From: an uncultured Phycisphaerales bacterium
Lineage (GTDB): Bacteria > Planctomycetota > Phycisphaerae > UBA1845
Direction of reading: 5' to 3'
NCBI GenBank assembly: GCA_965371725.1
Contig: CBDUZO010000027.1
Coordinates: 1-43,175 of the forward strand
Length of the DNA: 43,175 nt
In this document: positions 13,620 to 33,008 of the stretch, piece after piece
Layout: every line of letters begins with the position of its first letter
Position numbering within the stretch: position 1 is the stretch's first letter
Notes under the pieces: generated by a model
Databases searched by the model: none
Told to the model about the DNA's origin: nothing
Seen by the model: the letters and a program-made list of their open reading frames with translations, nothing else
Translations under genes and position numbers: made by a program

Positions 13620-13849
13620 CGACTCAGCCGTGGTCCGGCCGCGCGCGGGAGTGGCGCGCGTGGCTCCCGGAATGGGAGGCGACGGCTTCCGGGTCGCTAA
13701 TCGACGGCTTGATGGCTTCTTTTCCGGCACGTCTGTGTCCAACTCCGGCGGGGGGAACATGAGGGCCAATTGGCCCTCCGGTGATGACGCTACTGTGGCG
13801 GGGGGTTCGGTTGCCATCCGTGGCTCTCCGGCAATACCCGGGTGCTCCC

Positions 13850-13940
13850 TGGAACAAGTTCTTTTTTGATGTAGCGTCCGAATCCCGAAGTCTCCCGAAG
13901 ATTCCTGGCCGCCGGACGCTACGAGACCACTGAAAGCGCT
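13850..13940 (+). repeat. Copy A of a ~90-bp intergenic hairpin repeat family
   Basis: Nearly identical to 21490..21580 and to the reverse complement of 29352..29441. Contains a 10-bp inverted repeat, GTAGCGTCCG...CGGACGCTAC, flanking a conserved core. Confidence 0.8.
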
Positions 13941-14123
13941 TCAGAACGAGCCCATCTTAGCAACGCTGCAACGTCCTTCAACAGTGACATCGCGGGACTT
14001 CGTCCGGACGCGTGTCGGCGGGCGGGCTTTGGCGCGATCAGGGCACACAGTCCACCCAGGCGACCGCCGAACACATCGCCCCAACGCGCTCGGGACACGG
14101 CCCGACAAAACACTCCCGCAGGA

Positions 14124-14152
14124 CTGGCGGTCGAGTAGTTTCCTGGTATAAT
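14124..14152 (+). promoter_or_regulatory. Putative dnaA promoter with an extended -10 (TGGTATAAT)
   Basis: Perfect TATAAT preceded by TGn, 130 nt upstream of the dnaA ATG in an otherwise GC-rich region. The -35 element (CTGGCG) is weak. Confidence 0.4.
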
Positions 14153-14284
14153 CAACCCCTGCGCCACCCAGCATGGATGGCGCTCATAACCCCTTGTGTC
14201 GCATGAGTTTATGGCTCTTGCTGGCGGACCTTTCACGATTCAAGGTTCGCGATGCTACGCGACTCCTGTAGTCCGGCACTGAGC

Positions 14285-15601
14285 ATGGCAACCAACCTTC
14301 AAACGCGCTGGGATGATATTCTCGCTCAGGTCCGCCTGAACCAACCGCACCTTGTCCGAGGCTGGTTCACCGACATCGAGTTGATGGGCGTGGACGGGGG
14401 CGTACTGGTAATTCGAGCGCGCAACGGCGCCCAGAAGCGGTACCTCCAGCAGCACTGCCGTTCGGCGTTCGTGGAGGCTTCCCAGGCTGCCACCGGCCGT
14501 CTGATCACTGTCGAGTTCGAGGCGGTGGACGATCAGGATGATGCGCCCGCGCCCGACCCTTCGTTTCCCGCGGCCTGGGAGGAGCTGTCCGTCAACCCGG
14601 ATTATACCTTCGACAACTTCGTAACCGGCCCCTGCAACCGCCTCGCTCACGCCGCGGCGCTCGCCATCGCAGACGAACCGGGTCGAGCCTACAATCCCTT
14701 CTTTGTCTATGGTACGGTGGGTTTAGGGAAGACCCACCTGCTTCAAGCGATCTACCACGCGATCCGCGAGCGGAAGCCGGGGGTAAAGTGTCTTTACCTT
14801 TCGTGTGAGACCTTCATCAACCACTTCATCGAGGCCGTCGAGAGCGGGGCGCTGCACCAGTTCCGCTATCGCTACCGCCATGTTGACCTGCTGGTCATCG
14901 ATGATATCCAGTTCCTCGCCGAGCGCGAGCGAAGCCAGGAGGAGTTCTTTCACACGTTCAACACGCTTCACCAATCGCAGCGGCAGATCATCCTATCGGC
15001 TGACTGTTCGCCATCGGAGATTCCAAGCCTGGAAGAGCGCCTGGTCAGCCGCTTCGGCTCCGGCCTGGTGGCCCTGCTGGATCGCCCGTGCTACGAGACC
15101 CGTATGGCCATCCTTCGCAAGAAGGCAAAGCTGCGCTGTATCGAGGTTCCGGAGGACGTGATTGCCTTCGCGGCGAACCGGGTTAATGCGAACAACCGTG
15201 AGCTGGAAGGCGCCTTGATCAAGATTGACGCACTAAGCCAGACGCAATCGGGCGTCATCACGCTCGATCTGGCCCGCGAAGCGCTGGGCACGCCGACCAG
15301 CCAGCCGGTCAAGATCCCCGTAATCCTGGAGGTGGTCGCGCGACGGTTTGACCTGAAGGTATCCGATCTCCAGGGCAAGCGGCGCTCGAAGTCCATCACA
15401 CACCCGCGTCACGTGTGCATGTACCTAGCCCGAAAGCTCACCGCACAGAGCCTCGAGGAGATCGGGGGCTACTTCGGTGGGCGCGATCACACGACGGTGC
15501 TGCACGCGAGCCGGGCGGTCACACTGGCTGCGGAGCAGGACTCGATGCTGGCGGCCACGCTTGACGAGATCACCTCGGAGGTCAAGAATGTGCGGTATTA
15601 G
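14285..15601 (+). CDS. dnaA: Chromosomal replication initiator protein DnaA
   Basis: AAA+ Walker A GTVGLGKTHLL, sensor and box motifs (RELEGALIKI), and a C-terminal DNA-binding domain (KSITHPRHVCMYLARKLT). Confidence 0.95.
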   Translation: MATNLQTRWDDILAQVRLNQPHLVRGWFTDIELMGVDGGVLVIRARNGAQKRYLQQHCRSAFVEASQAATGRLITVEFEAVDDQDDAPAPDPSFPAAWEELSVNPDYTFDNFVTGPCNRLAHAAALAIADEPGRAYNPFFVYGTVGLGKTHLLQAIYHAIRERKPGVKCLYLSCETFINHFIEAVESGALHQFRYRYRHVDLLVIDDIQFLAERERSQEEFFHTFNTLHQSQRQIILSADCSPSEIPSLEERLVSRFGSGLVALLDRPCYETRMAILRKKAKLRCIEVPEDVIAFAANRVNANNRELEGALIKIDALSQTQSGVITLDLAREALGTPTSQPVKIPVILEVVARRFDLKVSDLQGKRRSKSITHPRHVCMYLARKLTAQSLEEIGGYFGGRDHTTVLHASRAVTLAAEQDSMLAATLDEITSEVKNVRY

Positions 15602-15779
15602 CCACGTAAGTAGTAGTGGCGTTCTTGTCGGTTCACCGGCTTTAAGCAACCGGTCCCCGGCGGGCCTGCGCGGCGGTGTGCGATTCCCTGCCGGTTCTCA
15701 CGGCATTGGCCACAACCTTCGCACAGCCGGTTGGGCTTCGACGGCGAGGCAGGATCCGCTATTACAGGTGCTTACGTGT

Positions 15780-15896
15780 TTCGCTGTCCGTTATCACACG
15801 GTTGTAACGTCACCTATGATGACTATGAGACTTATATATTAGGTACCTAATAGAGGGCGCGTAACTGTTTAAACTTCAAAGAGGCATCGAGTTCGC
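15780..15896. other. Candidate oriC unwinding region in the dnaA-dnaN intergenic spacer
   Basis: Sharp local AT enrichment (CTTATATATTAGGTACCTAATAGAG, including the palindrome TTAGGTACCTAA and GTTTAAAC). A degenerate DnaA-box-like GTTATCACA. Positioned where many bacteria place oriC. Confidence 0.3.
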
Positions 15897-17003
15897 ATGA
15901 AACTTCGATTCAACCGACAAGAGATGGCGGATGCTCTCTCGGCTTTATGTCTGGTGGCAGCTGCACGTACCACGAAGGAAATCCTGAAGTGTGTTCGGGT
16001 GGAAGCCCAAGCCGACGTGCTGTTGTTGGCGGCCACGGATCTGGAGTTGAGCTTGCGCTGCGCGATCGCGCAGGTCGAGGTTGATGATCCCGGCGAAACG
16101 CTGGTGGTGGCTGATACGCTGGCGAAGATCGTGCGGGAGTGCACGGATGAAGTGCTCACCCTGGACACCGACGAGAGCATGCTGCACATTCGTGGCGCTG
16201 GAAGTCACTTTCAAATCGTCACGCAGGACGCGGCCGAGTTCCCACCGGTGCCCGTGATGGAGGGCGACCCCGGTTTCACGATCGAGGACGGCCAGCTTAC
16301 CCGGTTGATTGAGTGGACCGCGTTCGCGGCTGCAAGAGAGAGTACGCGCTATGCGATCAACGGTGTGCTGTGGGAGCTTGAGGGTGAGAAGCTGACAATG
16401 AGCGCAACCGATGGGCGCCGCTTGTCCGTCGGCAGGGCGCAGGTCCAAATCGGGGATTCGAACTCCGCCACCAGCGCGATCGTTCCGGGCAAGGCCCTTT
16501 CCGTTATCAGTCGGCTTTCCGTCGCGGATGACGCGATGGTCGGCGTGAAGATCACGGGCAATCAGTTGCTGCTTACCGTTGGCGGATCGCTGGTGGGGAC
16601 ATCGCTCCTGGAAGGTCGGTTCCCGAAGTACCAGGACGTGATTCCGACGGATTGTGACCGGAAGGCTCGCTTGAACTCTCTGGAGTTTCTTGGGGCGCTG
16701 AAACAGGCGGCGTTGTTGACCAACGAGGAGTCCAAGGGTGTCCGTCTGGCGTTTACCGAGGGGGTGCTCACCCTGTCAAGCCGCGCACCCGAGCAGGGAG
16801 AGGCTACGATCTCGATCCCCGCTGAGTACTCGGGTGAGCCCGTGGAGATCGGGTTTAATCCGGTCTTTCTGTTGGATATGTTACGTGTGGTCCGCACGGA
16901 TGAGGTCACAATCGAGCTCAAGGACGCGAACCGCCCCGGTGTGGTCCGGGTGGACGGTGATTTTGTCTATGTCGTGATGCCGGTCAGTCTTTCGTCGGCA
17001 TAG
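15897..17003 (+). CDS. dnaN: DNA polymerase III beta sliding clamp
   Basis: Three-domain beta-clamp. N-terminus MKLRFNRQEMADALSALCLVAAART is typical for DnaN, and it directly follows dnaA. Confidence 0.95.
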   Translation: MKLRFNRQEMADALSALCLVAAARTTKEILKCVRVEAQADVLLLAATDLELSLRCAIAQVEVDDPGETLVVADTLAKIVRECTDEVLTLDTDESMLHIRGAGSHFQIVTQDAAEFPPVPVMEGDPGFTIEDGQLTRLIEWTAFAAARESTRYAINGVLWELEGEKLTMSATDGRRLSVGRAQVQIGDSNSATSAIVPGKALSVISRLSVADDAMVGVKITGNQLLLTVGGSLVGTSLLEGRFPKYQDVIPTDCDRKARLNSLEFLGALKQAALLTNEESKGVRLAFTEGVLTLSSRAPEQGEATISIPAEYSGEPVEIGFNPVFLLDMLRVVRTDEVTIELKDANRPGVVRVDGDFVYVVMPVSLSSA

Positions 17004-17018
17004 AACCGGTGGGTTGTA

Positions 17019-17402
17019 GTGGCTGATGATGACCGCTTGAAGTGGGTTCAGAGGAATCGAACCCGGCGTGATCGGGTACAGCAAGCCGGGACGCTCTTGG
17101 CGCGGTTGGTGAAGCGCGTAGCGGTTGATGGTGCGTCGTCGGGAATCGCAGCCGCCCTGGCAGGCGTGGTTGACGAGGAGTTTCGGAAGCATTGTCGGAT
17201 CGGCGGCGTGCGCTCGGGGACGCTCATGATCAGCGTGGACGAAGCTTCCTTGGCCTACACGATGCGCATGCAATGGCTGGCTCCTCTGTCCAAGGCACTG
17301 TCGGCCCGTGCGGGGATCGGGCCGATCGACCGGATCGCGTTCGAGTTCGGGCATGCCGGGGTGCGTGTGCCGGCGCGCGAAGATCAACCGGTGCGGGATT
17401 GA
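17019..17402 (+). CDS. DUF721 family protein (DciA-like helicase-loader candidate)
   Basis: Small basic protein in the conserved dnaN-X-gyrB position that DUF721/DciA genes occupy. Weak similarity to the DUF721 consensus (RIGGVRSGTLMISVDEASLAYTMRMQ). Confidence 0.5.
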   Translation: MADDDRLKWVQRNRTRRDRVQQAGTLLARLVKRVAVDGASSGIAAALAGVVDEEFRKHCRIGGVRSGTLMISVDEASLAYTMRMQWLAPLSKALSARAGIGPIDRIAFEFGHAGVRVPAREDQPVRD

Positions 17403-17448
17403 CAACGGTTTACGTGTTTGTTTGCCTTTTTTTGGGCCGCTCGAATGA

Positions 17449-20037
<2,589 letters not shown>

Positions 20038-20045
20038 CGCGCCGC

Positions 20046-20060
20046 GCCCGGGCACCGGGC
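20046..20060. terminator. Short GC hairpin (GCCCGG-GCA-CCGGGC) between convergent gyrB and DUF1015 genes
   Basis: Perfect 6-bp palindrome read from the sequence. No U-tract follows. Confidence 0.2.
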
Positions 20061-20134
20061 AAGCTCCACATCGACACAACGATGGTCATTCTCGCGGGCA
20101 GCCTGCAGCGCCCGCGCTCGTGGACCCTTGCGCC

Positions 20135-21379
20135 TCACGCCAGCGGGTTGAGGGTCATGCCTGTGGCGAGTTTGGGGTAGAAGTAGGTGCTTTTTTGGGG
20201 CATCAGGCCGCCGGCTTCGCTGACCGCGCGGAGGTGCGCCATGGGCGTGGCTTTCACCAGCAGCGCGACGCCCGACTCATCCCGTGCCGCCCTCTTGGCA
20301 TCGTCGGCCGACTTGACCCATCGGACTGTCGGAGTCTTGCCGCCGAGCTTCCGCGTGAGCAGTTCGTCGATCAGATACCGATGCAGGTAGGCGTAGTCGA
20401 GGTCGTACCAGGGTTCGCACTGATCCGGCTCAAGTGTCTTGAGCTTGGCACGATCCGTGAACCGCAGGGCGGCCTCCTTCCCGGTCGAGCCCTCGTGCAG
20501 AACGATGTCGGCTTCCTCGCCCGAGGCCGGAGCCGTCCCGGCAGACAGAGCGTCCGTCAGCGTCGCGAGGTCGATGTCGGTGATCGTCCGGTTGTACGGG
20601 AGGATCAGGCAACCCGGATCATCCATGCTCGCCAGGACGAACATCACATAATTGGCGGGGTGGTCCGCCGGCAGGGAGCCGCCTTGCCGTGACGTGAGCC
20701 AATCGCGGTAGAGCAGGGCCGTGCCGTAGCGGTGGTGGCCGTCGGCAATGTAGATTTTCTTGTCGGCCATCTCCCGCGCGACGCCGGCGATGACATCCGT
20801 GTCGGAGACGACCCAAAGCTGGTTTGCGACGCCGTCGATATCCGCCGTCACGGTTGGTGCGGTAGAGGCCGTGGCTGCAAAAGCCTTGCCGATTCGATCC
20901 TCCGGGTCGGCGTACAGGCCGAAGATGGGAGAGAGTTGACACTTCGTGGCCTTCATCAGTGCGAGCCGATCTTCCTTCGGCCCGCCGAAAGTCTTCTCAT
21001 GCGGGAGGACCGTGCCTTCCGAGAAAGGTGCGAGCCGCACGCGGGCGATGTATTTCCTGCGCGTGTAGGACTTGCCCTCACACGTGAAGCGCTGGTGATA
21101 GAGGTAGAGTGCGGGTCTTTCCTCGCGGATGAGCGTGCCCTCGTCGAGCCAGGCGGCGAGCGTCCTGGCGGCGTTGTCATAGACCTCCGCCGGTCCCGCG
21201 GACTTGGGGGGGATGTGTGGCAGGTCGATGGCCACGATGTTGTGATCGCTCCTTCCGAGCAGGGAGTCCTTGTCGGTCTGGTCGAGCACGTCGTACGGCG
21301 GGGCGATCAGCTTGGACACATCGCCAAGGGTGTTCGTCTGGTCGAAACGGATGGCGCTGAACGGTGTAATCTCCGGCAT
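20135..21379 (-). CDS. DUF1015 family protein
   Basis: Hallmark YIADGHHRY motif and length typical of DUF1015. Start taken at MPEITPF; the ORF extends to 21451. Confidence 0.7.
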   Translation of the reverse strand: MPEITPFSAIRFDQTNTLGDVSKLIAPPYDVLDQTDKDSLLGRSDHNIVAIDLPHIPPKSAGPAEVYDNAARTLAAWLDEGTLIREERPALYLYHQRFTCEGKSYTRRKYIARVRLAPFSEGTVLPHEKTFGGPKEDRLALMKATKCQLSPIFGLYADPEDRIGKAFAATASTAPTVTADIDGVANQLWVVSDTDVIAGVAREMADKKIYIADGHHRYGTALLYRDWLTSRQGGSLPADHPANYVMFVLASMDDPGCLILPYNRTITDIDLATLTDALSAGTAPASGEEADIVLHEGSTGKEAALRFTDRAKLKTLEPDQCEPWYDLDYAYLHRYLIDELLTRKLGGKTPTVRWVKSADDAKRAARDESGVALLVKATPMAHLRAVSEAGGLMPQKSTYFYPKLATGMTLNPLA

Positions 21380-21489
21380 CTTGGGCTCCTTTGGGCTTGC
21401 TCCACGCTCCCGTAGGGGAAGCAGGGTAACAACGGCGCGAAGGTGGTGCAAGTGCTCTTCAAAGGGCCCCGGCAGCGACGTCGTAGGCT

Positions 21490-21580
21490 AGAACAAGTTC
21501 TATTTTGATGTAGCGTCCGAATCCCGAAGTCTCCCGGAGATTCTTCGCCGTCGGACGCTTGCGAGATCACTGAAAGCGTT
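21490..21580 (+). repeat. Copy B of the ~90-bp intergenic hairpin repeat family
   Basis: About 90% identical to 13850..13940. Lies in the divergent promoter region between the DUF1015 gene and the QueC-like gene. Confidence 0.8.
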
Positions 21581-21671
21581 CTGGTTTCGATCGCCCCTGC
21601 GCGGTGAACGTGCCGATAAAGCCAGAGCGAACTTATGGACAACCGCGCCGCAGTCGCAGGGAGATTAAGCC

Positions 21672-22382: not shown

Positions 22383-22456
22383 TCCACTGCGCGCGGACGC
22401 GGGGCCACAGAGGAGGGGTGGATGATCCTCGAGGGCGCGTGCAGTGCCGAGTCGTG

Positions 22457-24016
22457 TCACTCCCGGCCGTCGGCCCCCCGTCGAACCCACAGGTTGTAGT
22501 TTTCCACGGCGCCGCGCGGTTCGTACGCGCCGAGGGTATCGAGAAGCTCCCCGTAGCACGCTTCTTTGCACCACGGGTCGAAGTAGGGTGATGGGCCGTC
22601 GGGGATGAGGATCGTATGAGCCTTTCCGGCGTTGAGGCCGGCGAGGATCTCCTGCATCTGGTCCTGCGATCGTGGAAACGCGAACCGGCAAGCGGATCGC
22701 CGTGAGGCGTGGACGTAGATGCCTGCATCGTAGGACCAGGCGTAGATTCGATCATCCTTGGGGACCATCTGGTCGAGTCGTTGTCCGATCTTCCGGAGGC
22801 GGGTGCGCTGGGCGTCCCCCGTCACGAGCGTGTCGTATGAGGTGGCCAGGCCGTACGCGTAGTGGCTCACAAGCGGTCCGCCCAGCAGCAGCAACAGAGC
22901 GAGTGACATGATCGCCACCGCGGCACGATGGCCGCGCCGAAGCCGCAGGAAAACCTCCTCGATGTGCAGGAACCCAAGGGCGGCCAGCCACAGCATGGGC
23001 GGAAACGCCGCCTGCCAGTAACGCATCGATCGGCTCGGGCCCAGTAAGGCGAGCAAGACCTGCCCCACCCACCAAAGCAACAGTACGAACACCGCGGCGC
23101 GTGACACCTGGTTGACACGACCACCTCGGAATGTGGCGACGGTTCCGACAAGGGCCAGGAATAGGCCGAGTTGAAGGGGCTCGAGCCCGTCGCGCTGCCG
23201 AATCCATGATGTGGCGGCATCGAGCAGGGCGGACCCGGTGAAGAGCCCCGTATTGAAGTCGAAGATTGCCTCCCGGGCCGGCGTGAGCGTGCCGCGATGC
23301 GCCAGCACGCCGACCACCACCGCGAGCCCGAGTGCAAAGCCCGTCCACGTCAGCGCGGCCGACATTGCCCAACGGCCTCGATCCGGCCGATGGAACACAG
23401 CCATCGTGAGTGTCACGATCGTGACGCTCAACAATCCGACACACGCCGTCTGCTTCACGGTGAGCGCTGCCGCAAAGAGCACGCCTGCGATCAGACCCGC
23501 CACGGCGCAACCACGAGCCCCGGGGGCGACCAGTGCCACAAGCCACACCGAACCGGCGCAGAGTTCGAGACAGGAAGAGTAGAAGTCCGGGTTGATCGAC
23601 GCGCCATCGTAGAGCCTCAGTGTGAAGACGACCGAACCCAGAAGCACGGTCAAGGCGGATGTGAGCGGGCTGAGGGTGCGGTGCAGGGCCCACCCGGCGA
23701 CGATCAGGGCAAGAACCAGTGTGACCCCGGGCAGCACCCATGCCCCTATCTGTCGCCCGCCCGTCAGCAGGATTCCCAATGCGTTGATCCAGGCGATACC
23801 CGGTGGCTTGTTCTCCCAACAGTCGACGTACATGCGCCCGCCGTCGTGGACGCATTGGCCGAGGTTGATGAGCTGATACTGGTCGTTCCGAAGATCGGCT
23901 GCGTAGCTGCTCCACGTGCCGGCGGCGATGAGCACGAGGCTGGCGATCCACGCCAGGAGGATCAACACCCGTGCGAGGGAGAATGGTTTCTTTGGGCGCT
24001 TCGGGTTCTCTGTCAT
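22457..24016 (-). CDS. Membrane glycosyltransferase, GT39/GT83-like (PMT/ArnT fold)
   Basis: More than 10 predicted TM helices. N-terminal loop has the DGGRMYVDCWENKPPG motif reminiscent of the PMT/ArnT DxD-like loop. Size ~519 aa. Confidence 0.65.
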   Translation of the reverse strand: MTENPKRPKKPFSLARVLILLAWIASLVLIAAGTWSSYAADLRNDQYQLINLGQCVHDGGRMYVDCWENKPPGIAWINALGILLTGGRQIGAWVLPGVTLVLALIVAGWALHRTLSPLTSALTVLLGSVVFTLRLYDGASINPDFYSSCLELCAGSVWLVALVAPGARGCAVAGLIAGVLFAAALTVKQTACVGLLSVTIVTLTMAVFHRPDRGRWAMSAALTWTGFALGLAVVVGVLAHRGTLTPAREAIFDFNTGLFTGSALLDAATSWIRQRDGLEPLQLGLFLALVGTVATFRGGRVNQVSRAAVFVLLLWWVGQVLLALLGPSRSMRYWQAAFPPMLWLAALGFLHIEEVFLRLRRGHRAAVAIMSLALLLLLGGPLVSHYAYGLATSYDTLVTGDAQRTRLRKIGQRLDQMVPKDDRIYAWSYDAGIYVHASRRSACRFAFPRSQDQMQEILAGLNAGKAHTILIPDGPSPYFDPWCKEACYGELLDTLGAYEPRGAVENYNLWVRRGADGRE

Positions 24017-24228
24017 TGTCCAGGTGCCGTCGGTTTACGGTCCCTCCAGTGCACGTGTCGCTATTTTTATCGAGCGGCGGCGAGGGCGACGCGTGTGGGC
24101 CGCTAGAGCGAGAGTATACCACGACTGTGGCGTTGGGTGCGGTAGGGTCCATCGTGTGGCGGGGGTACGGCGAAACCGTGCCGTTGCGGCTTGACATCGT
24201 CCTTGGGTCCGTGGAAAGTGGGCCTATC

Positions 24229-24786
24229 ATGGCCAAGCGGGACTCCGATCGACAGCTCGAGGCGGACCTGATGACGATCCTGCAGCCGTGCTTTGCCGGC
24301 ATTACCGTTTCGGTGGGGCACAGCGAGCGGTGGGATCGCACGAGCGCCACGTTCCGCTGGCCGGGGTTCGCCGATCTGCTGCCCGAAGAGCGGTTTCACC
24401 GGCTGATCCGGGTGATTCCCGAGGATGTCCGCCGGACGCGGATGGGCGGGGTCGTATGGGTGGAGTTGGCCGGCGATGAGACGATCGATCAATACCTGAA
24501 GCTGCCGCGAAGCGAGGACCTGGGCGCGAAGGAGCGAGACATCTTCGCCCGGCTTAATCGTGTCGGTTTCTTTGCGGCATTGGCTGCGCTGCTCGGTCCT
24601 ACGCCGGAGGCGCGCTGCGAGGGTGATTTCTCCAGGTCTGTCACCGTGCTGTCGAGGAAAAACGTCTCCGACGAGCACGTCCGTCAGGCGAAGCTCCTTT
24701 TCATCCGGCACGGCGTGTACTGCGACTGTCAGGTCCTGCCATTGGCGAAGCACGCACCGGCGGACAAGCGCGCGGAGGTCCTGTAG
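24229..24786 (+). CDS. Hypothetical protein
   Basis: ORF with in-genome-like codon usage that does not overlap the neighbouring gene when started at MAKRDSD. No recognisable domain. Confidence 0.4.
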   Translation: MAKRDSDRQLEADLMTILQPCFAGITVSVGHSERWDRTSATFRWPGFADLLPEERFHRLIRVIPEDVRRTRMGGVVWVELAGDETIDQYLKLPRSEDLGAKERDIFARLNRVGFFAALAALLGPTPEARCEGDFSRSVTVLSRKNVSDEHVRQAKLLFIRHGVYCDCQVLPLAKHAPADKRAEVL

Positions 24787-24826
24787 CCGCCGGTCCAATC
24801 GCACCACCGAATCACTGTGACGTCGA

Positions 24827-25960
24827 ATGCTCGAATTCTCCGTAACGTGTCAGGACGGTTCGGCCCGTAGCGGGATGCTCACGACACCGCACGGGCGAGT
24901 GGAAACACCCGTCTTCATGCCGGTCGGGACTGCCGGGTCGATTAAGGGTGTGACACCGACGCAACTTCGTGGGACCGGGACCGAGATGATTCTGGCGAAC
25001 ACCTATCATCTTCAGCTTCGGCCGACGGCTGACATCGTGGCTGAGCTCGGCGGGCTGCACCGCTTCATGGGTTGGGACGGCCCGATTCTCACGGACAGCG
25101 GCGGATACCAGGTGTTCTCCCTGACCGGGATCAACAAGATCACCGATGATGGTGTCGCGTTTCGTTCGCACATCGACGGCGCGCCGATGCGCCTTGATCC
25201 GAAGATCGCGACCGAAGTGCAGAACAAGCTCGGCGCCGATGTGATCATGGTCTTCGATGATTGCCCGCCGCTGCCGTGTGAGCGGGCGCGGCTGGAGACA
25301 GCCGTTGCGCGGACGATCCGTTGGGCTGCGCGGTGCAGGCAGGTCCATGCACGGTCTGATCAGGCGCTGTTCGGGATCGTTCAGGGCGGACTTGACATCG
25401 AGCTTCGCAAGCGGTGCGCCGAGGCGCTGATCGAGATCGGGTTCGACGGGTATGCCGTCGGCGGCCTGTCCGTTGGTGAGACGCATGAGCAGATGACGTC
25501 CGTGCTCGGCCCGATCACAGACGCCCTGCCGTCCGACCGTCCCAGGTATCTGATGGGCGTCGGAACGCCGCGTGACATTCTGGCTGCGGTGCGGACGGGG
25601 GTGGACATGTTCGATTGCGTGCTTCCGACACGGAACGGCCGCAACAGTTGGGCGTTTACAGCCGCCGGACCGCTGAAGATGCGGAATGAGAGGTACCGCG
25701 GCGACGATCAGCCGCTGGAGGCGGGGTGCGATTGCGAGACTTGCAAAAGGTTTTCCCGAGGTTACATTCGTCACCTCTTTAACGCCGGTGAGATGCTGGG
25801 TCCGACGCTGACGTCGATCCACAACCTCCGGTTTTATCAGAGATTCATGTCGCGGATTCGTGATTTGATCCGCGACGGCCGGCTCGGCGGGATCGTGCAC
25901 GAGTATCCGATTACGGCCGTAGACGCGCCGATGTCCGATCAGATTGAGGAAGACCTATGA
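24827..25960 (+). CDS. tgt: Queuine tRNA-ribosyltransferase (tRNA-guanine transglycosylase)
   Basis: Matches the TGT family end to end (HGRVETPVFMPVGT, ILANTYHL, zinc site CDCETCKRFSRGYIRHL). Followed by yajC as in many bacteria. Confidence 0.9.
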   Translation: MLEFSVTCQDGSARSGMLTTPHGRVETPVFMPVGTAGSIKGVTPTQLRGTGTEMILANTYHLQLRPTADIVAELGGLHRFMGWDGPILTDSGGYQVFSLTGINKITDDGVAFRSHIDGAPMRLDPKIATEVQNKLGADVIMVFDDCPPLPCERARLETAVARTIRWAARCRQVHARSDQALFGIVQGGLDIELRKRCAEALIEIGFDGYAVGGLSVGETHEQMTSVLGPITDALPSDRPRYLMGVGTPRDILAAVRTGVDMFDCVLPTRNGRNSWAFTAAGPLKMRNERYRGDDQPLEAGCDCETCKRFSRGYIRHLFNAGEMLGPTLTSIHNLRFYQRFMSRIRDLIRDGRLGGIVHEYPITAVDAPMSDQIEEDL

Positions 25961-26322
25961 ACCTTCTTATGGCAGTTCTCGCCCAGACGCAGCAGGCGCC
26001 GTCGACGCCGCCGACGGGTCAACCGTCAGCCGGTCCGTCGTTCTTCATCCTTGCCTTGATGTTTGCGATGGTGGCGTTCATCTTTCTCAGCTCGCGAACT
26101 CAGAAGAAGCGCGAGAAGCGCGAGCGCAATGAGTTGCACGCCACGCTGGCCAAGAACCACCGCGTCCTGACCGTTGGCGGCGTGATCGGTACCGTCGTCT
26201 CCGTCAAGGATAGCGAGGTCGTGCTCAAGGTCGATGAGTCCACCAACACGAAGATGACCTTTCTCAAGACGGCCATCCAGCGCATCGTCGAAGACGAGCC
26301 CACAACACTCGGGAAGCCGTAG
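25957..26322 (+). CDS. yajC: Preprotein translocase subunit YajC
   Basis: Single TM helix followed by the conserved YajC core (LHATLAKNHRVLTVGGVIGTVVSV). Its start overlaps the tgt stop by 4 nt. Confidence 0.85.
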   Translation: MNLLMAVLAQTQQAPSTPPTGQPSAGPSFFILALMFAMVAFIFLSSRTQKKREKRERNELHATLAKNHRVLTVGGVIGTVVSVKDSEVVLKVDESTNTKMTFLKTAIQRIVEDEPTTLGKP

Positions 26323-26355
26323 ACAACACGAAGCGATCCTAAGACTGCGGGATAG

Positions 26356-26667
26356 GTGGGACCGACTTTCCGGTCGGTGGGCGCCCCATCCTTTTCGTTG
26401 GGAAAGGGTGGCGGACAGGCCCGTTCGATCGGTTTGCTCTCCTGTTTGCCTCCCACCGCAGATGGCGAGGTCAACATCGATGACATCCTCGCGGGGATCG
26501 CGGCGTTTCAATCGAACAACAACGACCCGTTGACCTGGTTCGACATTGCCCCCGCGTTTGGAGACGGTGTTCCGAACCAGATGGTCGACATCGACGACAT
26601 CCTCGCGAATATCCAGGGCTTCCAGTCCAAAGCGTATCCCGGCCTTGGGCCGTTGGATTGCCCGTAG
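26356..26667 (+). CDS. Orphan dockerin-like double-repeat ORF (possible small protein or gene remnant)
   Basis: Two tandem segments, DGEVNIDDILAGIAAFQS and NQMVDIDDILANIQGFQS, with dockerin/EF-hand-like spacing. No signal peptide and a non-ATG start. Confidence 0.25.
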   Translation: MGPTFRSVGAPSFSLGKGGGQARSIGLLSCLPPTADGEVNIDDILAGIAAFQSNNNDPLTWFDIAPAFGDGVPNQMVDIDDILANIQGFQSKAYPGLGPLDCP

Positions 26668-26697
26668 CGGCGCGTGTTTCTGTTCAAACGAAGAGTA

Positions 26698-26724
26698 CCC
26701 CGGGCCGTCCTTCGGGGCGGCCCG
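26698..26724 (+). terminator. GC-rich hairpin with a TTCG loop downstream of yajC and the dockerin-like ORF
   Basis: CGGGCCGTCC-TTCG-GGGCGGCCCG followed by GTTCTAA. Confidence 0.3.
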
Positions 26725-27081
26725 TTCTAACGGCCGAGCGGGTCACACAGGAACGCCACGAGAACCTCAAGGGCATCGTGGCCGACGCGGACTTGGATGC
26801 GACGCTCGTCCGGGTATCAGGCTTATGTTGCACTGGGATTCGACCGGTGCGGCGGGCTTCCTCGTCCGAGCTTCGGGGATTCTGTTGGATCGGAAATCTC
26901 GTCAGCTCCACCCAGATACATCAAGCGTGCCAGTCCGGTGTTGGGGGGCACGCTGGCAGGTGTAGGATCAGCTCGCCGGAGCACTTGTAGTCCGCGGCTA
27001 ACACGGTACATTATGGTGCCTTTGTGTCACCGCTTGAGTAGCCCGGAGATCCAAAGACGCGTCTTGAAAGGAGCAGGGAAG

Positions 27082-29274
27082 ATGGCCACTGGGAATCTCA
27101 CAACTCTCGCTGTTCTCGCGCTGAGTCTTGCCTTCGTTTCTGGAGCCAGCGCCAACACAATTCACGTGGACGACGATGCGCTAAACGACCCAGGACCCGG
27201 TGATCCAGCCGTGAGCGATCCATTGGAGGACGGTTCGGCCGAACATCCGTTCGACGCCATCCAGGAGGGGATCGACCAGGCTGTCGACGGTGACGAGGTA
27301 GTCGTCGCGGATGGGCTCTACACGGGCGATGGCAACTTTTACGTCGTCGACTTCGATGGTAAGGCGATCACACTTCGTTCTGCGAACGGCCCCGAGACTT
27401 GCGTGGTCGATTGCGAGGGCCACGAGCACGGCCTCTTGTTCTGGAACGGCGAGACCACGTCCTCCGTTTTGGACGGGTTCACGATCCGGAATTGCCATGG
27501 GGGTAACGGGGGGGCGGTGAGCTGCTGGAACAGCAGCCCAACGATCACCAACTGCTCCATTACCGGAAACTCGGCAGGTGAGGGTGGTGCCGGCATCGAC
27601 TGCTACGACAACAGCAGCCCGATGATCGCCAACTGCGTTATTACCGGAAACACGGGGGGGTGGGGGGGCGGTGGCATTGCTTGTGGGTCCAGCACGACGA
27701 TCACCAACTGCACGATTACGAGAAACACGGTGATAGAAGGAGGCAGTGGCATTGCTTGTGGGCCCAGCACGACGATCACCAACTGCATTGTGTGGGGCAA
27801 CGCGCCGAACCAAATTGCCGGCAGCCCTACGGTAAGGTACTGCGACGTGCAAGGCGGCTGGGCAGGCGACGGGAACATCAACGCTGATCCGCTGTTCGTG
27901 CCCGGACCGGCTGGCTGCTTCTATCTGAGTCAGACGGGTGCGGGACAGGCTGTCGATAGCCCATGTGTCGACACGGGGAGCGACACGGCTGTGAATCTCG
28001 GGCTTGATACGTTGACCACGCGGTCTGACGAAGTGACCGACACCGGCATCGTCGATATGGGCTATCACTACCCGGTAACGGGGCTGCCGCTTCTCATGGG
28101 TGACTACGATCGAGACCTCGATGTTGACTTGGCTGATTTCGCGGAGCTTCAGAACTGTTTCACCGGTGAGGGTCCGAGCGAAGTAAGCCCCTGCTGTCGC
28201 ATCTTCGACTTTGAGCCGGACGACGATGTGGATCTCGACGACTACGCATTGTTCCAAGGTGCGTTTGCCGAGACGTGCGGCAATGGCGTGATCGAACAGG
28301 GCGAACAGTGCGAACCGCCGAACACCGACACCTGCGATGAGTACTGCCAGACGATCGGTGGAAGCGTCGCCAACGACTCGTGCAGCAGTCCGACGATGGT
28401 TGTGGACGGCACCACGATCAGTATCACCAACCAAGGCGCGACGACGGACGGACCGGACGAGCCGACAGCCTGCGACTTCTTTGGATACACGCACGTCGAA
28501 TCCGACGTCTGGTACTGCTATACAGCCACCTGCACCGACCTCGTGACCGTGAGCCTTTGCGGTAGCAGTTATGACACCAAGGTGGCTGTCTACCATGCGT
28601 GCGAGTGTCCCACGCAGGCCGCCTTTGCTTGCAGCGATGACAACTGTGGGATCGGCTCTGGTTCCCGCGTGCAGTTCATGGGGATTGCAGGGGAGGATTA
28701 TCTGATTCGCGTTGGCGGGTTCGACGGGGCGCAGGGAGACGGGTTTATGACAATTCTCTGCGGGACGCCGCCCTCTTGCACCGACGGGGAAGGTGATTGC
28801 TTCGCAGACAATGGGTCTCCTGCGTGCGATGATGAGGAGTGCTGTGAAGCCGTCTGTGCCGTCGATCAATACTGCTGCGACGTGACGTGGGATGACTGGT
28901 GCGCCGGCGAGGCGGAGGGTCTCTGCGGCGGCATCTATCCTGCCTGCGTCGATGGGACCGGCGACTGCTTCACGGCCCACGGCACCGCCGGCTGTGATGA
29001 TGAGACCTGCTGCCAGAGTGTGTGCCTCTTCGATCCCTACTGCTGCCTGATGGAGTGGGACGACACGTGCGTGGCCGAGGCGAATGAGCGATGTGGCGAT
29101 TTCCTGATCTGCGGGTTGTCCACCGAAAGCTGCCTCGTGCCGCATCGCGATCCCGGCTGTAGCGATGGGGACTGCTGCCGGGAAGTCTGCTCACAGATTC
29201 CGGATTGCTGTCTGGTCGAGTGGACGCCCGAGTGCGTGGACGCGGCCAACGCCGCGCCGGACGTCTGTCGCTGA
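27082..29274 (+). CDS. Large secreted right-handed beta-helix protein with a dockerin-like segment and three C-terminal Cys-rich repeats
   Basis: AAAGGAG SD before ATG 27082. Signal peptide MATGNLTTLAVLALSLAFVSGASA. Parallel beta-helix repeats (NCSITGNSAGEGGAGIDC, NCVITGNTGGWGGGGIAC, NCTITRNTVIEGGSGIAC). Dockerin-like DYDRDLDVDLADFAELQNCF...DDDVDLDDYALFQGAF. Three ~50-aa repeats, each with about 8-10 Cys in the pattern C..CC...C.....CC...W....C. Confidence 0.75.
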   Translation: MATGNLTTLAVLALSLAFVSGASANTIHVDDDALNDPGPGDPAVSDPLEDGSAEHPFDAIQEGIDQAVDGDEVVVADGLYTGDGNFYVVDFDGKAITLRSANGPETCVVDCEGHEHGLLFWNGETTSSVLDGFTIRNCHGGNGGAVSCWNSSPTITNCSITGNSAGEGGAGIDCYDNSSPMIANCVITGNTGGWGGGGIACGSSTTITNCTITRNTVIEGGSGIACGPSTTITNCIVWGNAPNQIAGSPTVRYCDVQGGWAGDGNINADPLFVPGPAGCFYLSQTGAGQAVDSPCVDTGSDTAVNLGLDTLTTRSDEVTDTGIVDMGYHYPVTGLPLLMGDYDRDLDVDLADFAELQNCFTGEGPSEVSPCCRIFDFEPDDDVDLDDYALFQGAFAETCGNGVIEQGEQCEPPNTDTCDEYCQTIGGSVANDSCSSPTMVVDGTTISITNQGATTDGPDEPTACDFFGYTHVESDVWYCYTATCTDLVTVSLCGSSYDTKVAVYHACECPTQAAFACSDDNCGIGSGSRVQFMGIAGEDYLIRVGGFDGAQGDGFMTILCGTPPSCTDGEGDCFADNGSPACDDEECCEAVCAVDQYCCDVTWDDWCAGEAEGLCGGIYPACVDGTGDCFTAHGTAGCDDETCCQSVCLFDPYCCLMEWDDTCVAEANERCGDFLICGLSTESCLVPHRDPGCSDGDCCREVCSQIPDCCLVEWTPECVDAANAAPDVCR

Positions 29275-31055
29275 CGGCGGAGGTGATAACGCATCAACCG
29301 TGGGCGGAACGAGCCTGCGCGGATGTAGGACCTGGTCTCCAGCCGGTCTATAGCGATTTCAGTGGTCTCGTAGCGTCCGACAGCCAAGAATCTCCGGGAA
29401 ACTTCGGGATTCGGGCACTACATCAGAATAGAACTTGTTCCAGCCGCGCCGAGCCTGACGAGTGGACGTACGTGCTTGCCCACTGCCTGCTCCATCTTGG
29501 TTTCGAGCACTTCCGCGAGCGAGGCGACCCGCGTGCCTGGAACGCCGCGTGCGATTACTTTGTAGCCCGCTTCCTTGCCGATCTCAAGTTGGGTCGCCCG
29601 CCCGCGACCCTCCCGGTTTTCGGTCAAGCCCCCGCTCGCGACGAGGAGAGCCTGTACGAGCAGTTCCGCGAGGCCGGCATACCAGATCATCTGGTTGGCT
29701 ACGGAACCGCGGGGCCAAAGGCGAGCGATATGATCTATCAGCCTCCCAGACCGGTATCCCAGCTTCGGGTCCGCAAGAAGCTCTGGGCTGAGTGGTTCAG
29801 CGAAGGGATTGCCATGGCCGTCAGCCAGGCGGTCGAGGTGGCCGCTGGGAATCTGGCGAGACTCAGCGGCGGATGGCAGCTCAGGACCAACGTACAGAGG
29901 GCGAGGTCGTGGTTCATCAGCAGCTACCCTCTGCTGGGAGCGTTGGCGGGCGCTTTCGAGTTGGTCGAGGATGCACAAGTCTGTATCCGCCTCGGCATTT
30001 CGGTTGCCGCCGTGGACGCCGAGTCCAAGGAGGTCTACGTAAATCCGGCGGCCGGGCTGACCTTGGACGAAGCCCGTTTCGTCATTGCCCACGAGCTTCT
30101 GCATGTTGGATTGCGTCATGACGCGCGCCGCCGAGGCCGTGACCGGTTCCTGTGGAATGTGGCCTGCGACTATGTGATCAACGGCTGGCTCGCCGAAATG
30201 CAGGTCGGAGACATTCCTCGCTTTGGCGGATTGCACGACGAGGACCTGAAGGGTTTGTCGGCCGAGGCGGTCTACGATCTCGTCGTGACTGATCTACGCC
30301 GCGGCCGAAAACTCGCGACCTTGGCAGGATACGGTCGCTGCGACATTCTCGAACCACGTACACCCGATTGGTGGGCGGCTTGCGCCGGGATCTCGCTCGA
30401 CGACTTCTATCGCAGCTGTCTGATGCGCGGTCTGTCCTACCATGAGAAAGAGGGACGCGGATTCCTGCCAGCCGGGCTTGTCGAGGAGATACGGGCGCTG
30501 AATCAACCGGCGATTCCATGGGAAGTGGAGCTCTCCCAGTGGTTCGACGGGTATTTCTCGCCGCTGGAAAAACGCCGTACCTATGCCCGCCCAAGCAGGC
30601 GGCAGTCGGCAACACCCGACATTCCGCGGCCGCGCTGGGTACCGATCGAGGGCGCGGAAGACGGGCGCACGTTCGGTGTCGTCCTCGACACTTCCGGTTC
30701 CATGGATCGGACGCTGCTCGCCAAGGCACTCGGGGCGGTGGCCAGCTATGCGATCAGCCGAGACGTGCCCGCGGTCCGCGTCGTCTTCTGCGACGCCGCT
30801 GCGTACGACCAGGGATACATGCCGCCTGACGCCATTGCCCAACGTGTCAAAGTCCGCGGCCGCGGCGGGACGATTCTCCAGCCCGGTGTGAACCTACTGG
30901 AGAAGGCCGAGGACTTTCCCAAGAAAGGCCCGATCCTCATCATCACCGATGGCTGGTGCGATCGTGTGCGCGTTCGCCACGACCATGCGTTCCTCTTGCC
31001 TCAGAGCAGCAGTTTGCCGTTCGTGCCGAAAGGAAGGGTGTTTCGGTTCAAGTGA
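29205..31055 (+). CDS. DUF2201-type protein with a putative metallopeptidase module (HExxH) and C-terminal VWA domain; N-terminal module duplicated and degenerate
   Basis: Intact module VIAHELLHVGLRH...LWNVACDYVING, then VWA MIDAS VVLDTSGSM and ILIITDGW. An upstream degenerate copy VLAHCLLHLGFEH...AWNAACDYFVA is also present. The stop position is firm but the true start is uncertain: the ORF runs through repeat copy C and 70 nt into the upstream gene, and GTG 29469 is a possible start. Confidence 0.7.
   Translation: MLSGRVDARVRGRGQRRAGRLSLTAEVITHQPWAERACADVGPGLQPVYSDFSGLVASDSQESPGNFGIRALHQNRTCSSRAEPDEWTYVLAHCLLHLGFEHFRERGDPRAWNAACDYFVARFLADLKLGRPPATLPVFGQAPARDEESLYEQFREAGIPDHLVGYGTAGPKASDMIYQPPRPVSQLRVRKKLWAEWFSEGIAMAVSQAVEVAAGNLARLSGGWQLRTNVQRARSWFISSYPLLGALAGAFELVEDAQVCIRLGISVAAVDAESKEVYVNPAAGLTLDEARFVIAHELLHVGLRHDARRRGRDRFLWNVACDYVINGWLAEMQVGDIPRFGGLHDEDLKGLSAEAVYDLVVTDLRRGRKLATLAGYGRCDILEPRTPDWWAACAGISLDDFYRSCLMRGLSYHEKEGRGFLPAGLVEEIRALNQPAIPWEVELSQWFDGYFSPLEKRRTYARPSRRQSATPDIPRPRWVPIEGAEDGRTFGVVLDTSGSMDRTLLAKALGAVASYAISRDVPAVRVVFCDAAAYDQGYMPPDAIAQRVKVRGRGGTILQPGVNLLEKAEDFPKKGPILIITDGWCDRVRVRHDHAFLLPQSSSLPFVPKGRVFRFK
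29352..29441 (-). repeat. Copy C (inverted orientation) of the ~90-bp intergenic hairpin repeat family
   Basis: Its reverse complement aligns along the full length with copies A and B. Confidence 0.8.
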
Positions 31056-32730: not shown

Positions 32731-32801
32731 TCCCGACGCCTGGAATCGAACCAGGGTCACCTGGTCCACAGCCAGGTGTTCTGCCGCTAAACTACGTCGG
32801 G
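32731..32801 (-). tRNA. tRNA-His(GTG)
   Basis: Cloverleaf read from the reverse complement. Acceptor CCCGACG/CGTCGGG, anticodon loop CTGTGGA, T-loop GGTTCGATTCC, discriminator A73, no encoded G-1. Confidence 0.8.
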
Positions 32802-32835
32802 GCAGCAAGACGGACAAGGCCCGGTCGTTCAGCAA

Positions 32836-32907: not shown

Positions 32908-33008
32908 GCAAACGGAAGACGGTGGACACGATCCACAAGCCCGCGGGCTCCGCCCGCTTTCAAGGCAAGGGCCGCCCCAAACGGCGATTTCATCTTCCAA
33001 GCTCACGA

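What the first reader, a model, noticed from the sequence alone, without database searches (positions are those of the whole stretch)
13850..29441. Novel ~90-bp hairpin-containing intergenic repeat family, three copies in 43 kb
Copies at 13850..13940 (+), 21490..21580 (+) and 29352..29441 (inverted) are about 90% identical along their whole length. The consensus is GAACAAGTTCTATTTTGATGTAGCGTCCGAATCCCGAAGTCTCCCGGAGATTCTTCGCCGTCGGACGCTACGAGACCACTGAAAGCG. Each carries a 10-bp inverted repeat, GTAGCGTCCG...CGGACGCTAC, enclosing a conserved ~30-nt core. The three sites are all intergenic and all 5' of genes: the top6B/dnaA divergent spacer, the DUF1015/QueC-like divergent spacer, and just upstream of the DUF2201 gene. 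In that last case the repeat is read through by the extended ORF. The element could be a small structured RNA, a REP/MITE-like mobile repeat, or a shared regulatory module.
Basis: seen in the sequence. Interest (0 to 1): 0.55.

Follow-up and report, generated by a model that had tools for sequence, protein, structure and literature searches.

The report
Small mobile DNA repeat, new family
The three ~90-base hairpin repeats are real, but they behave like copies of a small parasitic mobile DNA element (a MITE-like repeat) in an uncultured Phycisphaerae bacterium rather than a conserved RNA gene or regulatory switch, which makes them an ordinary kind of feature from a previously unrecorded family.

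Summary
Three copies of a 90-91 nt element lie at 13852-13941 (+), 21491-21581 (+) and 29351-29440 (-). They are 87-89% identical, similarity stops sharply at the edges, and shuffled sequence gives no matches. The window is a whole contig of a Phycisphaerae (Planctomycetota) MAG.

The element matches no Rfam family. Its exact 21-nt core was not found in GTDB representative genomes, JGI metagenomes or IMG/VR, and the unit gave only one weak partial hit in PLSDB. A fourth copy lies on an ENA metagenome scaffold inside a coding sequence. Removing exactly 92 nt there (element plus one TA) restores a frame that aligns without gaps to an intact homologue.

Copy 3 abuts a DUF2201 gene whose first ~65 codons are missing, with the breakpoint at the element's edge. 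Three relatives with the same topoVI/dnaA gene order, and one with the DUF1015/QueC spacer, lack the element. All four copies are flanked C|TR...YR|G. Stem changes are never compensatory, and no sigma-70 promoter or terminator was found.

Best reading: a non-autonomous, MITE-like mobile repeat that inserts at CTAG-like sites. It may be moved by an IS630-type enzyme (TA duplication) or a Y1/RAYT-type enzyme (GTAG-tagged palindrome, no clear terminal inverted repeats). It is a new member of a known kind and of low interest.

The parts
13852..13941 (+). Copy 1 of the 90-nt element. The conserved unit with flanks C|TG...CA|G is 13849-13944. It lies in the divergent spacer between topo VI subunit B (ATG at 13817, 31 nt away) and dnaA (14252, 307 nt away), where the GC skew changes sign.
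13871..13922 (+). Central GTAG-tagged palindrome of copy 1. The arms GTAGCGTCCG (13871-13880) and CGGACGCTAC (13913-13922) enclose a 32-nt core with an inner imperfect hairpin (GAATC..GATTC).
21491..21581 (+). Copy 2 (91 nt). The unit with flanks C|TA...TG|G is 21488-21584. It lies in the divergent spacer between DUF1015 (ATG at 21379, minus strand) and the QueC-like gene (21672).
29351..29440 (-). Copy 3 (90 nt, inverted). The unit with flanks C|TG...TA|G is 29348-29443 on the minus strand. It lies 73 nt after the stop of the DUF1565-like gene (29274) and directly abuts the truncated DUF2201 gene.
29446..31055 (+). DUF2201 (metallopeptidase-like plus VWA-like) gene lacking its first ~65 codons. 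Homology to full-length homologues begins at 'RAEPDEW', immediately after copy 3. The first in-frame canonical start after the element is GTG 29472. A longer ORF from TTG 29205 reads through the element.
11856..13817 (-). Topoisomerase VI subunit B gene. Copy 1 replaces the DNA from 31 nt upstream of its start codon, so its transcription must start in, or pass through, the element.
20135..21379 (-). DUF1015 gene. Copy 2 lies 108 nt upstream of its ATG.

Best explanation
The repeat is a non-autonomous, MITE-like mobile DNA element. It is 90-91 bp long, about 52% G+C in a 61.5% G+C genome, and built around a GTAG-tagged palindrome. It has spread in one Phycisphaerae lineage.

Shown:
- It occurs in unrelated contexts and in both orientations, with sharp boundaries.
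- One copy interrupts a coding sequence, and another marks the breakpoint of a truncated gene.
- Relatives with the same gene order lack it.
- Changes in the stem are not compensated, as expected of decaying selfish copies.

Inferred:
- It inserts at CTAG-like sites. Every copy is flanked C|TA(or TG)...TA(or CA, TG)|G.
- In the one testable case, the inserted DNA equals the element plus one TA.
- It encodes nothing, so it must be moved in trans by a transposase elsewhere in the genome.

The more likely mechanism (about 0.35) is an IS630/Tc1-mariner-type DDE enzyme, which targets CTAG/TA and duplicates the TA. The runner-up (about 0.25) is a Y1 HUH transposase of the IS200/IS605-RAYT type, which recognises the GTAG-tagged hairpin and inserts next to a fixed short target without duplication.

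Effects on neighbouring genes are side effects of insertion, not the element's purpose. Examples are the new upstream region of the topo VI operon and the loss of the DUF2201 N-terminus.
For: Repeat reality and sharp boundaries.

Fourth copy in ENA scaffold L010: it was found by searching the six-frame peptides of the element.
- The sequence before and after it encodes two halves of one protein. The joined halves align to the intact homologue P0272 at 45% identity, E = 4e-20.
- Deleting exactly 92 nt (the 90-nt element plus one TA) gives an ungapped 78-residue alignment.
- Deleting 90, 94 or 96 nt gives a frameshift.

Copy 3 and the DUF2201 gene:
- Most full-length hits among the 150 best DUF2201 homologues match the window's ORF only from residue ~79-84, which corresponds to their own residue ~60-75.
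- The alignment shows that homology starts at '(R)RAEPxEW', at the element's edge.
- The missing N-terminal domain is found nowhere else in the window.

Absence in relatives: an nhmmer profile of the four copies finds nothing in five loci of relatives with GyrB 78-84% identical. These include three topoVI/dnaA spacers and one DUF1015/QueC spacer with conserved gene order.

Flanks: the flanks are C|TG..CA|G, C|TA..TG|G, C|TG..TA|G and C|TA..TA|A. TA makes up only 2.0% of dinucleotides in the window.

No selection on structure: 0 of 26 pairs are compensatory and the covariation term is +0.75.

General bacterial MITE properties (under 200 bp, TA at the termini, target duplication, long stem-loop, intragenic copies) are taken from PMC2229807. 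That IS630 targets CTAG and duplicates TA is from my own knowledge of the IS literature and was not checked here.
Against: - No clear terminal inverted repeats. The outer 20 nt are complementary at only about 10 of 20 positions by eye, and the ends do not pair in DNA folds. A DDE transposase would normally need such repeats.
- Only four copies are known.
- The TA duplication is perfect in one copy only. The flanking CTA/TAG could be part of the element rather than of the target.
- No transposase of any kind lies in the window.
- The rest of the genome could not be searched, so copy number and the autonomous partner are unknown.
- L010 is a short and apparently mosaic metagenome scaffold.
- At this divergence the relatives' spacers do not align well enough to show an exact empty site.
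- In all four copies the GAACAAGTTCT end faces a downstream reading frame. That would also fit an outward-acting regulatory role, although only two of the four cases are informative.
Confidence: 0.65

Rival explanations
1. It is a REP/REPIN-type element mobilised by a Y1 HUH transposase (RAYT or an IS200/IS605 relative). The enzyme recognises the GTAG-tagged hairpin in single-stranded DNA, cuts at fixed short sequences about 19 nt either side of the hairpin foot, and inserts next to a CTR target without duplication. This is still a mobile repeat, but with a different mechanism from the TA-duplicating one.
For: - The palindrome has the REP format: (T)GTAG followed by the stem CGTCCGA...TCGGACG. 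Compare the REP tables in PMC2817692 and the GTAG families in PMC3733652.
- That paper reports GTAG REPs and many tyrosine transposases in the planctomycete R. baltica, and loops with self-complementary interiors of up to 27 bp.
- There are no clear terminal inverted repeats and the ends are asymmetric. IS200/IS605 elements also lack them (PMC2817692).
- The left flank CTR is conserved in all four copies.
- A 92-nt insertion in L010 fits 'element including a 3' TA, no duplication' equally well.
Against: - The conserved unit is 90-96 nt, not the 20-40 nt of a REP.
- GTAG is base-paired with CTAC here, whereas in classical REPs it is an unpaired tag.
- The right flank G (three of four copies) and the symmetric C-TA...TA-G pattern are better explained by a palindromic CTAG target.
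- Copies 2 and 3 lie on the same side of the GC-skew switch in opposite orientations. That does not show the strand bias typical of IS200/IS605 elements, though the sample is only two copies.
- No RAYT or Y1 gene lies in the window.
Confidence: 0.25
2. It is a shared cis-regulatory module (promoter and/or operator) placed upstream of several genes. The nearly palindromic AGAACAAGTTCT at one end would serve as a repressor-binding site, and the hairpin as an RNA leader. The repeats would then be kept by selection for co-regulation.
For: - GAACAAGTTCT is invariant in all four copies, and the 14-nt stretch CCGAATCCCGAAGT is also invariant.
- In every copy that end faces the start or continuation of a reading frame: topo VI B 31 nt away, DUF1015 108 nt away, and the GTG of DUF2201 28 nt away.
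- Copy 1 leaves only 31 nt between itself and the topo VI B start codon, so transcription of that gene must involve the element.
Against: - No sigma-70-like promoter or terminator lies in or next to any copy.
- Relatives with the same genes lack the element, so it is not an ancestral control region.
- Two of four copies interrupt or truncate coding sequences.
- The neighbouring genes have no evident functional link.
- Orientation is informative for only two copies, which gives p of about 0.5.
- The promoter scan covers only the sigma-70 consensus, which may not apply to Planctomycetota.
Confidence: 0.1
3. It is a small structured non-coding RNA gene present in several copies and transcribed as a discrete ~90-nt RNA.
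For: A nested hairpin is predicted in all copies, with RNA z-scores down to -3.3 for copy 2. The core is highly conserved.
Against: - There is no Rfam family at the gathering threshold or at E up to 10.
- None of 26 pairs is compensatory, seven copy-by-pair cells are broken, and the covariation term is unfavourable.
- z-scores for copy 3 are only -0.8 (RNA) and -0.15 (DNA).
- There is no promoter or terminator.
- Copies lie inside reading frames.
- The family is absent from relatives.
Confidence: 0.04

Closest known systems
RUP (repeat unit of pneumococcus), a 107-bp MITE of Streptococcus pneumoniae thought to be moved by IS630-Spn1
   Same: It is a small non-coding dispersed repeat of about 100 bp. 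It inserts at TA-containing targets and has TA at its termini. It is presumed to be mobilised in trans and is sometimes found inside other genes (PMC2229807).
   Different: - There is no sequence similarity.
- RUP has recognisable terminal inverted repeats that match its IS. Here the ends are only about 50% complementary, and no partner IS is known.
- The host phylum (Planctomycetota) and the G+C content differ.
- This element has a strong internal GTAG-tagged palindrome.
Correia / NEMIS elements of Neisseria
   Same: They are about 100-155 bp, have a TA target duplication, form long hairpins when transcribed, often sit just upstream of genes and can alter their expression (PMC2229807).
   Different: - Correia elements have 24-26 bp terminal inverted repeats and an IHF site.
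- They are A+T-rich and restricted to Neisseria.
- None of these features is seen here.
REP / REPIN elements with GTAG tag, mobilised by RAYT tyrosine transposases
   Same: The palindrome starts with (T)GTAG followed by a G+C-rich stem. Such repeats and their transposases are reported in a planctomycete (PMC3733652; PMC2817692). Neither has terminal inverted repeats.
   Different: - REPs are 20-40 bp, whereas this unit is 90-96 bp with 19 conserved nt on each side of the palindrome.
- GTAG is paired here.
- The TA/CTAG-like flanks are not a REP feature.
- RAYT association and high copy number could not be tested.
YPAL / RU-2 of Yersinia
   Same: It is a bacterial mobile repeat whose inverted repeats are internal rather than terminal and which is not A+T-rich (PMC2229807).
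   Different: YPAL is 168 bp, lacks TA at its termini, and makes variable duplications of 3-26 bp. There is no sequence similarity.

Membership tests
Bacterial MITE (as summarised in PMC2229807) | Short (under 200 bp), non-coding, dispersed in several copies with sharp boundaries | tested here: met
   The unit is 90-91 nt, with three copies in the window and one on L010. Similarity ends at the unit's edges.
Bacterial MITE (as summarised in PMC2229807) | Terminal inverted repeats | tested here: not met
   The outer 20 nt are complementary at about 10 of 20 positions by eye, and the termini stay unpaired in DNA folds. The strong inverted repeat is internal (13871-13880 and 13913-13922).
Bacterial MITE (as summarised in PMC2229807) | Target-site duplication / TA at termini | tested here: inconclusive
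   L010 has TA on both sides, and only removal of the element plus one TA (92 nt) restores the host reading frame. The window copies have TG/CA, TA/TG and TG/TA. This is one clean case only, and the TA could belong to the element.
Bacterial MITE (as summarised in PMC2229807) | Evidence of mobility (filled versus empty sites) | tested here: met
   There is an insertion inside a coding sequence relative to an intact homologue. The breakpoint of the truncated DUF2201 gene lies at the element's edge. The element is absent from the syntenic spacers of relatives. No exact empty site at the DNA level was obtained.
IS630/Tc1-mariner-derived MITE | Ends matching the inverted repeats of an IS630-family element in the same genome | not testable with these tools
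   Only one contig of the genome is available, and the window holds no transposase.
IS630/Tc1-mariner-derived MITE | Insertion at NTAN/CTAG with TA duplication | tested here: inconclusive
   All four 5' flanks are C-T-R and three of four 3' flanks are Y-R-G. The L010 excision test fits a TA duplication. The sample is four copies.
REP / REPIN (RAYT-mobilised) | Conserved GTAG (or CGTC) tetranucleotide at the 5' foot of an imperfect palindrome | tested here: met
   All four copies have TGTAG followed by a stem: CGTCCGA in copies 1 and 2, TGCCCGA in copy 3 and CTTCCGA in L010. GTAG is, however, paired with a 3' CTAC.
REP / REPIN (RAYT-mobilised) | Unit size 20-40 bp (REP), or two inverted REPs forming the unit (REPIN) | tested here: not met
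   The palindrome is 52 nt with a 32-nt interior, and the conserved unit extends a further 19 nt on each side.
REP / REPIN (RAYT-mobilised) | High copy number and a RAYT gene flanked by the repeat | not testable with these tools
Any Rfam RNA family | Score at or above the family's gathering threshold | tested here: not met
   Only tRNAs reach threshold in the window. Nothing relevant appears at E up to 10 around copy 1 or at E up to 1 on L010.

The most novel reading that the evidence does not exclude
The element may be a hybrid type not yet described. It would be a ~90-bp unit with a REP-like GTAG-tagged palindrome at its centre and no terminal inverted repeats, moved by a planctomycete Y1/RAYT-like transposase into CTAG-like sites. 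It would also be domesticated as an outward-acting control element, because its invariant AGAACAAGTTCT end sits directly upstream of the topo VI operon beside the replication origin and faces a reading frame in all four copies.
Probability: 0.12. Interest if true: 0.45.

Novelty: new member of a known kind. Interest (0 to 1): 0.2.

Why it matters
The practical value is for annotation. The element explains a truncated DUF2201 gene and a spurious read-through ORF (29205-31055). It also shows that the upstream region of the topo VI operon, next to dnaA and the likely origin, has been remodelled by an insertion. It adds a mobile-repeat family for Phycisphaerae, a group for which few such elements are described. 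If the whole genome were available, it could serve as a marker for strain typing and rearrangements. It does not open a new biological question unless the GTAG palindrome proves to be the handle of a new Y1-transposase system.

Tried and rejected
- **Rfam.** At the gathering threshold on the whole window, and at permissive E-values around copy 1 and on L010, only tRNAs or noise appeared.
- **Collection scans.** The exact-pattern scan with the 21-nt core (19 specified bases) over GTDB genomes gave two hits, both chance matches in unrelated sequence. The same scan of JGI metagenomes gave seven contigs and none carries the element. Four peat contigs share one unrelated conserved locus containing GGATCCCGAAGTCTCCCGGAGATCC. 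I judged this a chance match of the expected frequency, and it has no Rfam hit. IMG/VR gave nothing. PLSDB gave one weak 30-nt hit.
- **Source genome.** Exact-protein look-ups of DnaA, TGT, Top6B and GyrB from the window found no record, so other contigs of the source genome could not be reached. The cluster look-up gave no accession.
- **Closer relatives.** The contigs of the relatives with GyrB 84% and 81% identical were too short or had no DNA available.
- **Empty sites.** Aligning the topoVI/dnaA spacers of relatives did not define an exact empty site, because they are too diverged beyond the ribosome-binding region.
- **L010 host gene.** Pfam and PDB searches of the joined L010 peptide gave nothing useful. 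My recollection that it is an aminotransferase is unverified. Only collinearity with homologue P0272 is shown.
- **Copy 3 as a simple insertion.** The upstream 73 nt do not encode the missing N-terminus in any frame, and excision does not restore the gene, so a deletion or recombination must also have occurred.
- **Inversion between copies.** The missing DUF2201 N-terminus is not next to copies 1 or 2, and the dnaA-gyrB gene order matches that of relatives.
- **Other ideas.**
  - An integron attC site, a LexA-type box and a terminator were considered from the sequence.
  - They were dropped for lack of matching consensus or context. The terminator scan was negative.
Full report
**1. The observation.**
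- A 25-nt core, GAATCCCGAAGTNTCCCGNAGATTC, occurs exactly three times in the window even with three mismatches allowed. None is expected in 100 dinucleotide-preserving shuffles.
- The terminal GAACAAGTTCT also occurs three times.
- Aligning the copies with 50-nt flanks shows that similarity starts and stops abruptly, so this is not part of a larger duplication.
- The element proper is 13852-13941 (+), 21491-21581 (+) and 29351-29440 (-). It is 90-91 nt long and the copies are 86.8-89.0% identical. Its G+C content is 50-53% in a window of 61.5%.
- The 10-bp arms GTAGCGTCCG / CGGACGCTAC are intact only in copy 1. Copy 2 has an extra base in the 3' arm, and copy 3 has two substitutions in the 5' arm.

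**2. Where the window comes from.** GyrB of the window is identical to a database protein whose longest contig is 43,175 bp, so the window is a whole contig.
- The nearest GyrB sequences (85% identity and below) include hits that their sources name as Phycisphaerae or Planctomycetota MAGs.
- Gene content:
  - topo VI A and B, on the minus strand;
  - dnaA, dnaN, dciA and gyrB;
  - DUF1015 on the minus strand and a QueC-like gene;
  - tgt and yajC, and a DUF1565-like protein;
  - DUF2201;
  - an array of 28 tRNA genes.
- The GC skew changes sign near 14 kb, which places the origin close to copy 1.

**3. Is it a known RNA or a structured RNA?**
- No Rfam family matches.
- A nested hairpin is predicted in each copy. 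Its stability is unremarkable: RNA z-scores run from -0.3 to -3.3 and DNA z-scores from -0.15 to -2.0.
- Across the four copies, none of the 26 consensus pairs shows a compensatory change. Seven copy-by-pair cells are simply broken, and the covariation term is unfavourable.
- No sigma-70-like promoter or intrinsic terminator is detected in or beside any copy.
- These results give no support to an RNA gene, and none to a promoter or terminator module.

**4. Copies elsewhere.**
- Exact scans with a 21-nt core pattern (19 specified bases) returned only chance-level matches in one genome per GTDB species, only chance-level matches in JGI metagenomes, and none in IMG/VR.
- BLASTN against PLSDB plasmids gave one weak 30-nt hit.
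- The DNA scans were then exhausted, so I searched the six reading frames of the element as a peptide against the protein collection.
- That search gave one protein, P0121, on the 1,477-bp ENA scaffold L010. L010 carries a fourth copy at 835-924 in inverted orientation, 86-90% identical to the others.

**5. Evidence that it moves.**
- (a) *Insertion in a coding sequence.* In L010 the DNA before and after the element encodes two halves of one protein.
  - The joined peptide aligns collinearly with an intact homologue, P0272, at 45% identity and E = 4e-20.
  - Deleting exactly 92 nt, which is the element plus one TA, restores a frame that aligns to P0272 over 78 residues without a gap.
  - Deleting 90, 94 or 96 nt gives a frameshift.
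- (b) *A truncated gene.* Most full-length DUF2201 homologues (about 600 aa) match the window's ORF only from residue ~79-84, which corresponds to their own residue ~60-75.
  - In the alignment, homology begins at '(R)RAEPxEW', and that motif is encoded immediately after copy 3.
  - The ~65-residue N-terminal domain is found nowhere else in the window.
  - Only 73 nt separate the element from the stop codon of the upstream gene.
  - The gene is therefore truncated exactly at the element's edge. An insertion followed by an adjacent deletion, or recombination between two copies, would produce this.
- (c) *Absence in relatives.* Five loci from relatives (GyrB 78-84% identical) were searched with an nhmmer profile of the four copies and gave nothing. 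Three of them keep the topoVI/dnaA arrangement and one keeps the DUF1015/QueC spacer. Their spacers are too diverged to show an exact empty site.
- (d) *Uniform flanks.* The four copies are flanked C|TG..CA|G, C|TA..TG|G, C|TG..TA|G and C|TA..TA|A. Each flank is TA or one transition away from it, and TA makes up only 2.0% of dinucleotides in the window.

**6. Mechanism.** The element encodes nothing and the window holds no transposase, so mobilisation must occur in trans. Two mechanisms fit the data.
- *IS630/Tc1-mariner-type DDE enzyme.* Such enzymes insert at CTAG/NTAN and duplicate the TA (my own knowledge; the RUP precedent is in PMC2229807). This explains the symmetric C-TA...TA-G flanks and the 92-nt excision. 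It sits badly with the lack of clear terminal inverted repeats: the outer 20 nt are about 50% complementary, and the ends stay unpaired in the folds.
- *Y1 HUH transposase of the IS200/IS605-RAYT type.* The palindrome has the REP format, (T)GTAG followed by a G+C-rich stem (PMC2817692; PMC3733652). GTAG repeats and many tyrosine transposases are reported in the planctomycete R. baltica. Such elements lack terminal inverted repeats and insert beside a fixed short target without duplication, which fits L010 equally well. Against this reading:
  - the unit is 90-96 nt rather than 20-40 nt;
  - GTAG is base-paired;
  - the right-hand G is unexplained;
  - copies 2 and 3 lie on the same replichore in opposite orientations, though that is a sample of two.
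- I rate 'mobile repeat' at about 0.65-0.7 overall. Within that, the IS630-like route is about 0.35 and the Y1 route about 0.25.

**7. Effects on neighbours.** These are inferred.
- Copy 1 begins 31 nt upstream of the topo VI B start codon. In relatives only the ribosome-binding region is conserved there, so transcription of the topo VI operon must start in or cross the element.
- Copy 3 leaves DUF2201 with either a GTG start at 29472 or a read-through ORF from TTG 29205 that includes 30 element-encoded codons.
- In all four copies the invariant GAACAAGTTCT end faces a reading frame. Only two of those cases are informative, so this is not significant.

**8. Comparison and novelty.** By sequence the family is unrecorded in every collection searched. 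By kind it is a small non-autonomous mobile repeat. Its closest analogues are RUP and Correia elements (TA targets, ~100 bp, hairpins), GTAG-tagged REPs and REPINs (palindrome format), and YPAL (internal inverted repeat). It fails the strict MITE criterion of terminal inverted repeats and the REP size criterion, so I file it only as a 'MITE-like mobile repeat' and a new member of a known kind.

**9. Verdict.** Of its three interpretations, the mobile-repeat one is supported and the other two are not. Interest is low (0.2). The only route to something more unusual is if the GTAG palindrome proves to be the substrate of a new planctomycete Y1-transposase system, or if the element has been co-opted to drive the topo VI operon next to the origin.

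Noticed in passing
window 32731-37166: There is an array of 28 tRNA genes: 7 on the minus strand (32731-33499) and 21 on the plus strand (34051-36554), with one more Rfam tRNA hit at 37101-37166. Several genes called tRNA-Leu (taa, cag, caa) are only 73 nt, so they lack the long variable arm expected of bacterial tRNA-Leu. A tRNA-Ile(tat) is also present. It looks like a tRNA gene array of possibly foreign origin.
   Followed up: no
window 10602-13817 (minus strand), next to dnaA at 14252: Genes for both subunits of topoisomerase VI (A and B), a mainly archaeal and eukaryotic enzyme, sit divergently beside dnaA-dnaN-dciA-gyrB. The GC skew changes sign at about 14 kb. The topo VI B / dnaA arrangement is conserved in relatives L011, L012 and L014.
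   Followed up: partly
window 14150-14250; L011, L012 and L014 upstream of dnaA: A conserved block lies upstream of dnaA across relatives: CTGG..GTAYAAT..TGGAGGGCGCG..CATAACCCTTT. It is probably the dnaA promoter or origin-proximal control region.
   Followed up: no
window 29446-30300: The DUF2201 protein carries an internal duplication. A degenerate first copy of the metallopeptidase-like motif (WTYVLAHCLLHLGFEHF...WNAACDY) precedes the canonical one (RFVIAHELLHVGLRH...WNVACDY). Both copies are conserved in homologues.
   Followed up: partly
L010 1-1477 (ENA ERZ23498525 scaffold_286687): The scaffold looks mosaic. It holds an A+T-rich segment with a DUF3683/HTH gene (1-508, minus strand), then the coding sequence interrupted by the element. 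From about 1075 the reading frame continues into sequence that looked to me like the N-terminus of an IS4/IS1634-type transposase, but Pfam found nothing there. It may be a chimeric assembly or a hotspot for insertions.
   Followed up: partly
L003 14034-14100; also L004, L008 and L009 (JGI peat metagenome contigs): Four contigs share one conserved locus containing the same 21-mer as the element's inner hairpin, but with GGATC..GATCC instead of GAATC..GATTC around it. There is no Rfam match. I judged it a chance hit of the pattern, though the hairpin is conserved among the four contigs.
   Followed up: partly
window 27534-27764 and 39801-41611: There are periodic in-frame DNA repeats inside two large genes. 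Units of 75-81 nt lie in the DUF1565-like gene. Units of 99 nt lie in the 832-aa HEAT-repeat gene.
   Followed up: no
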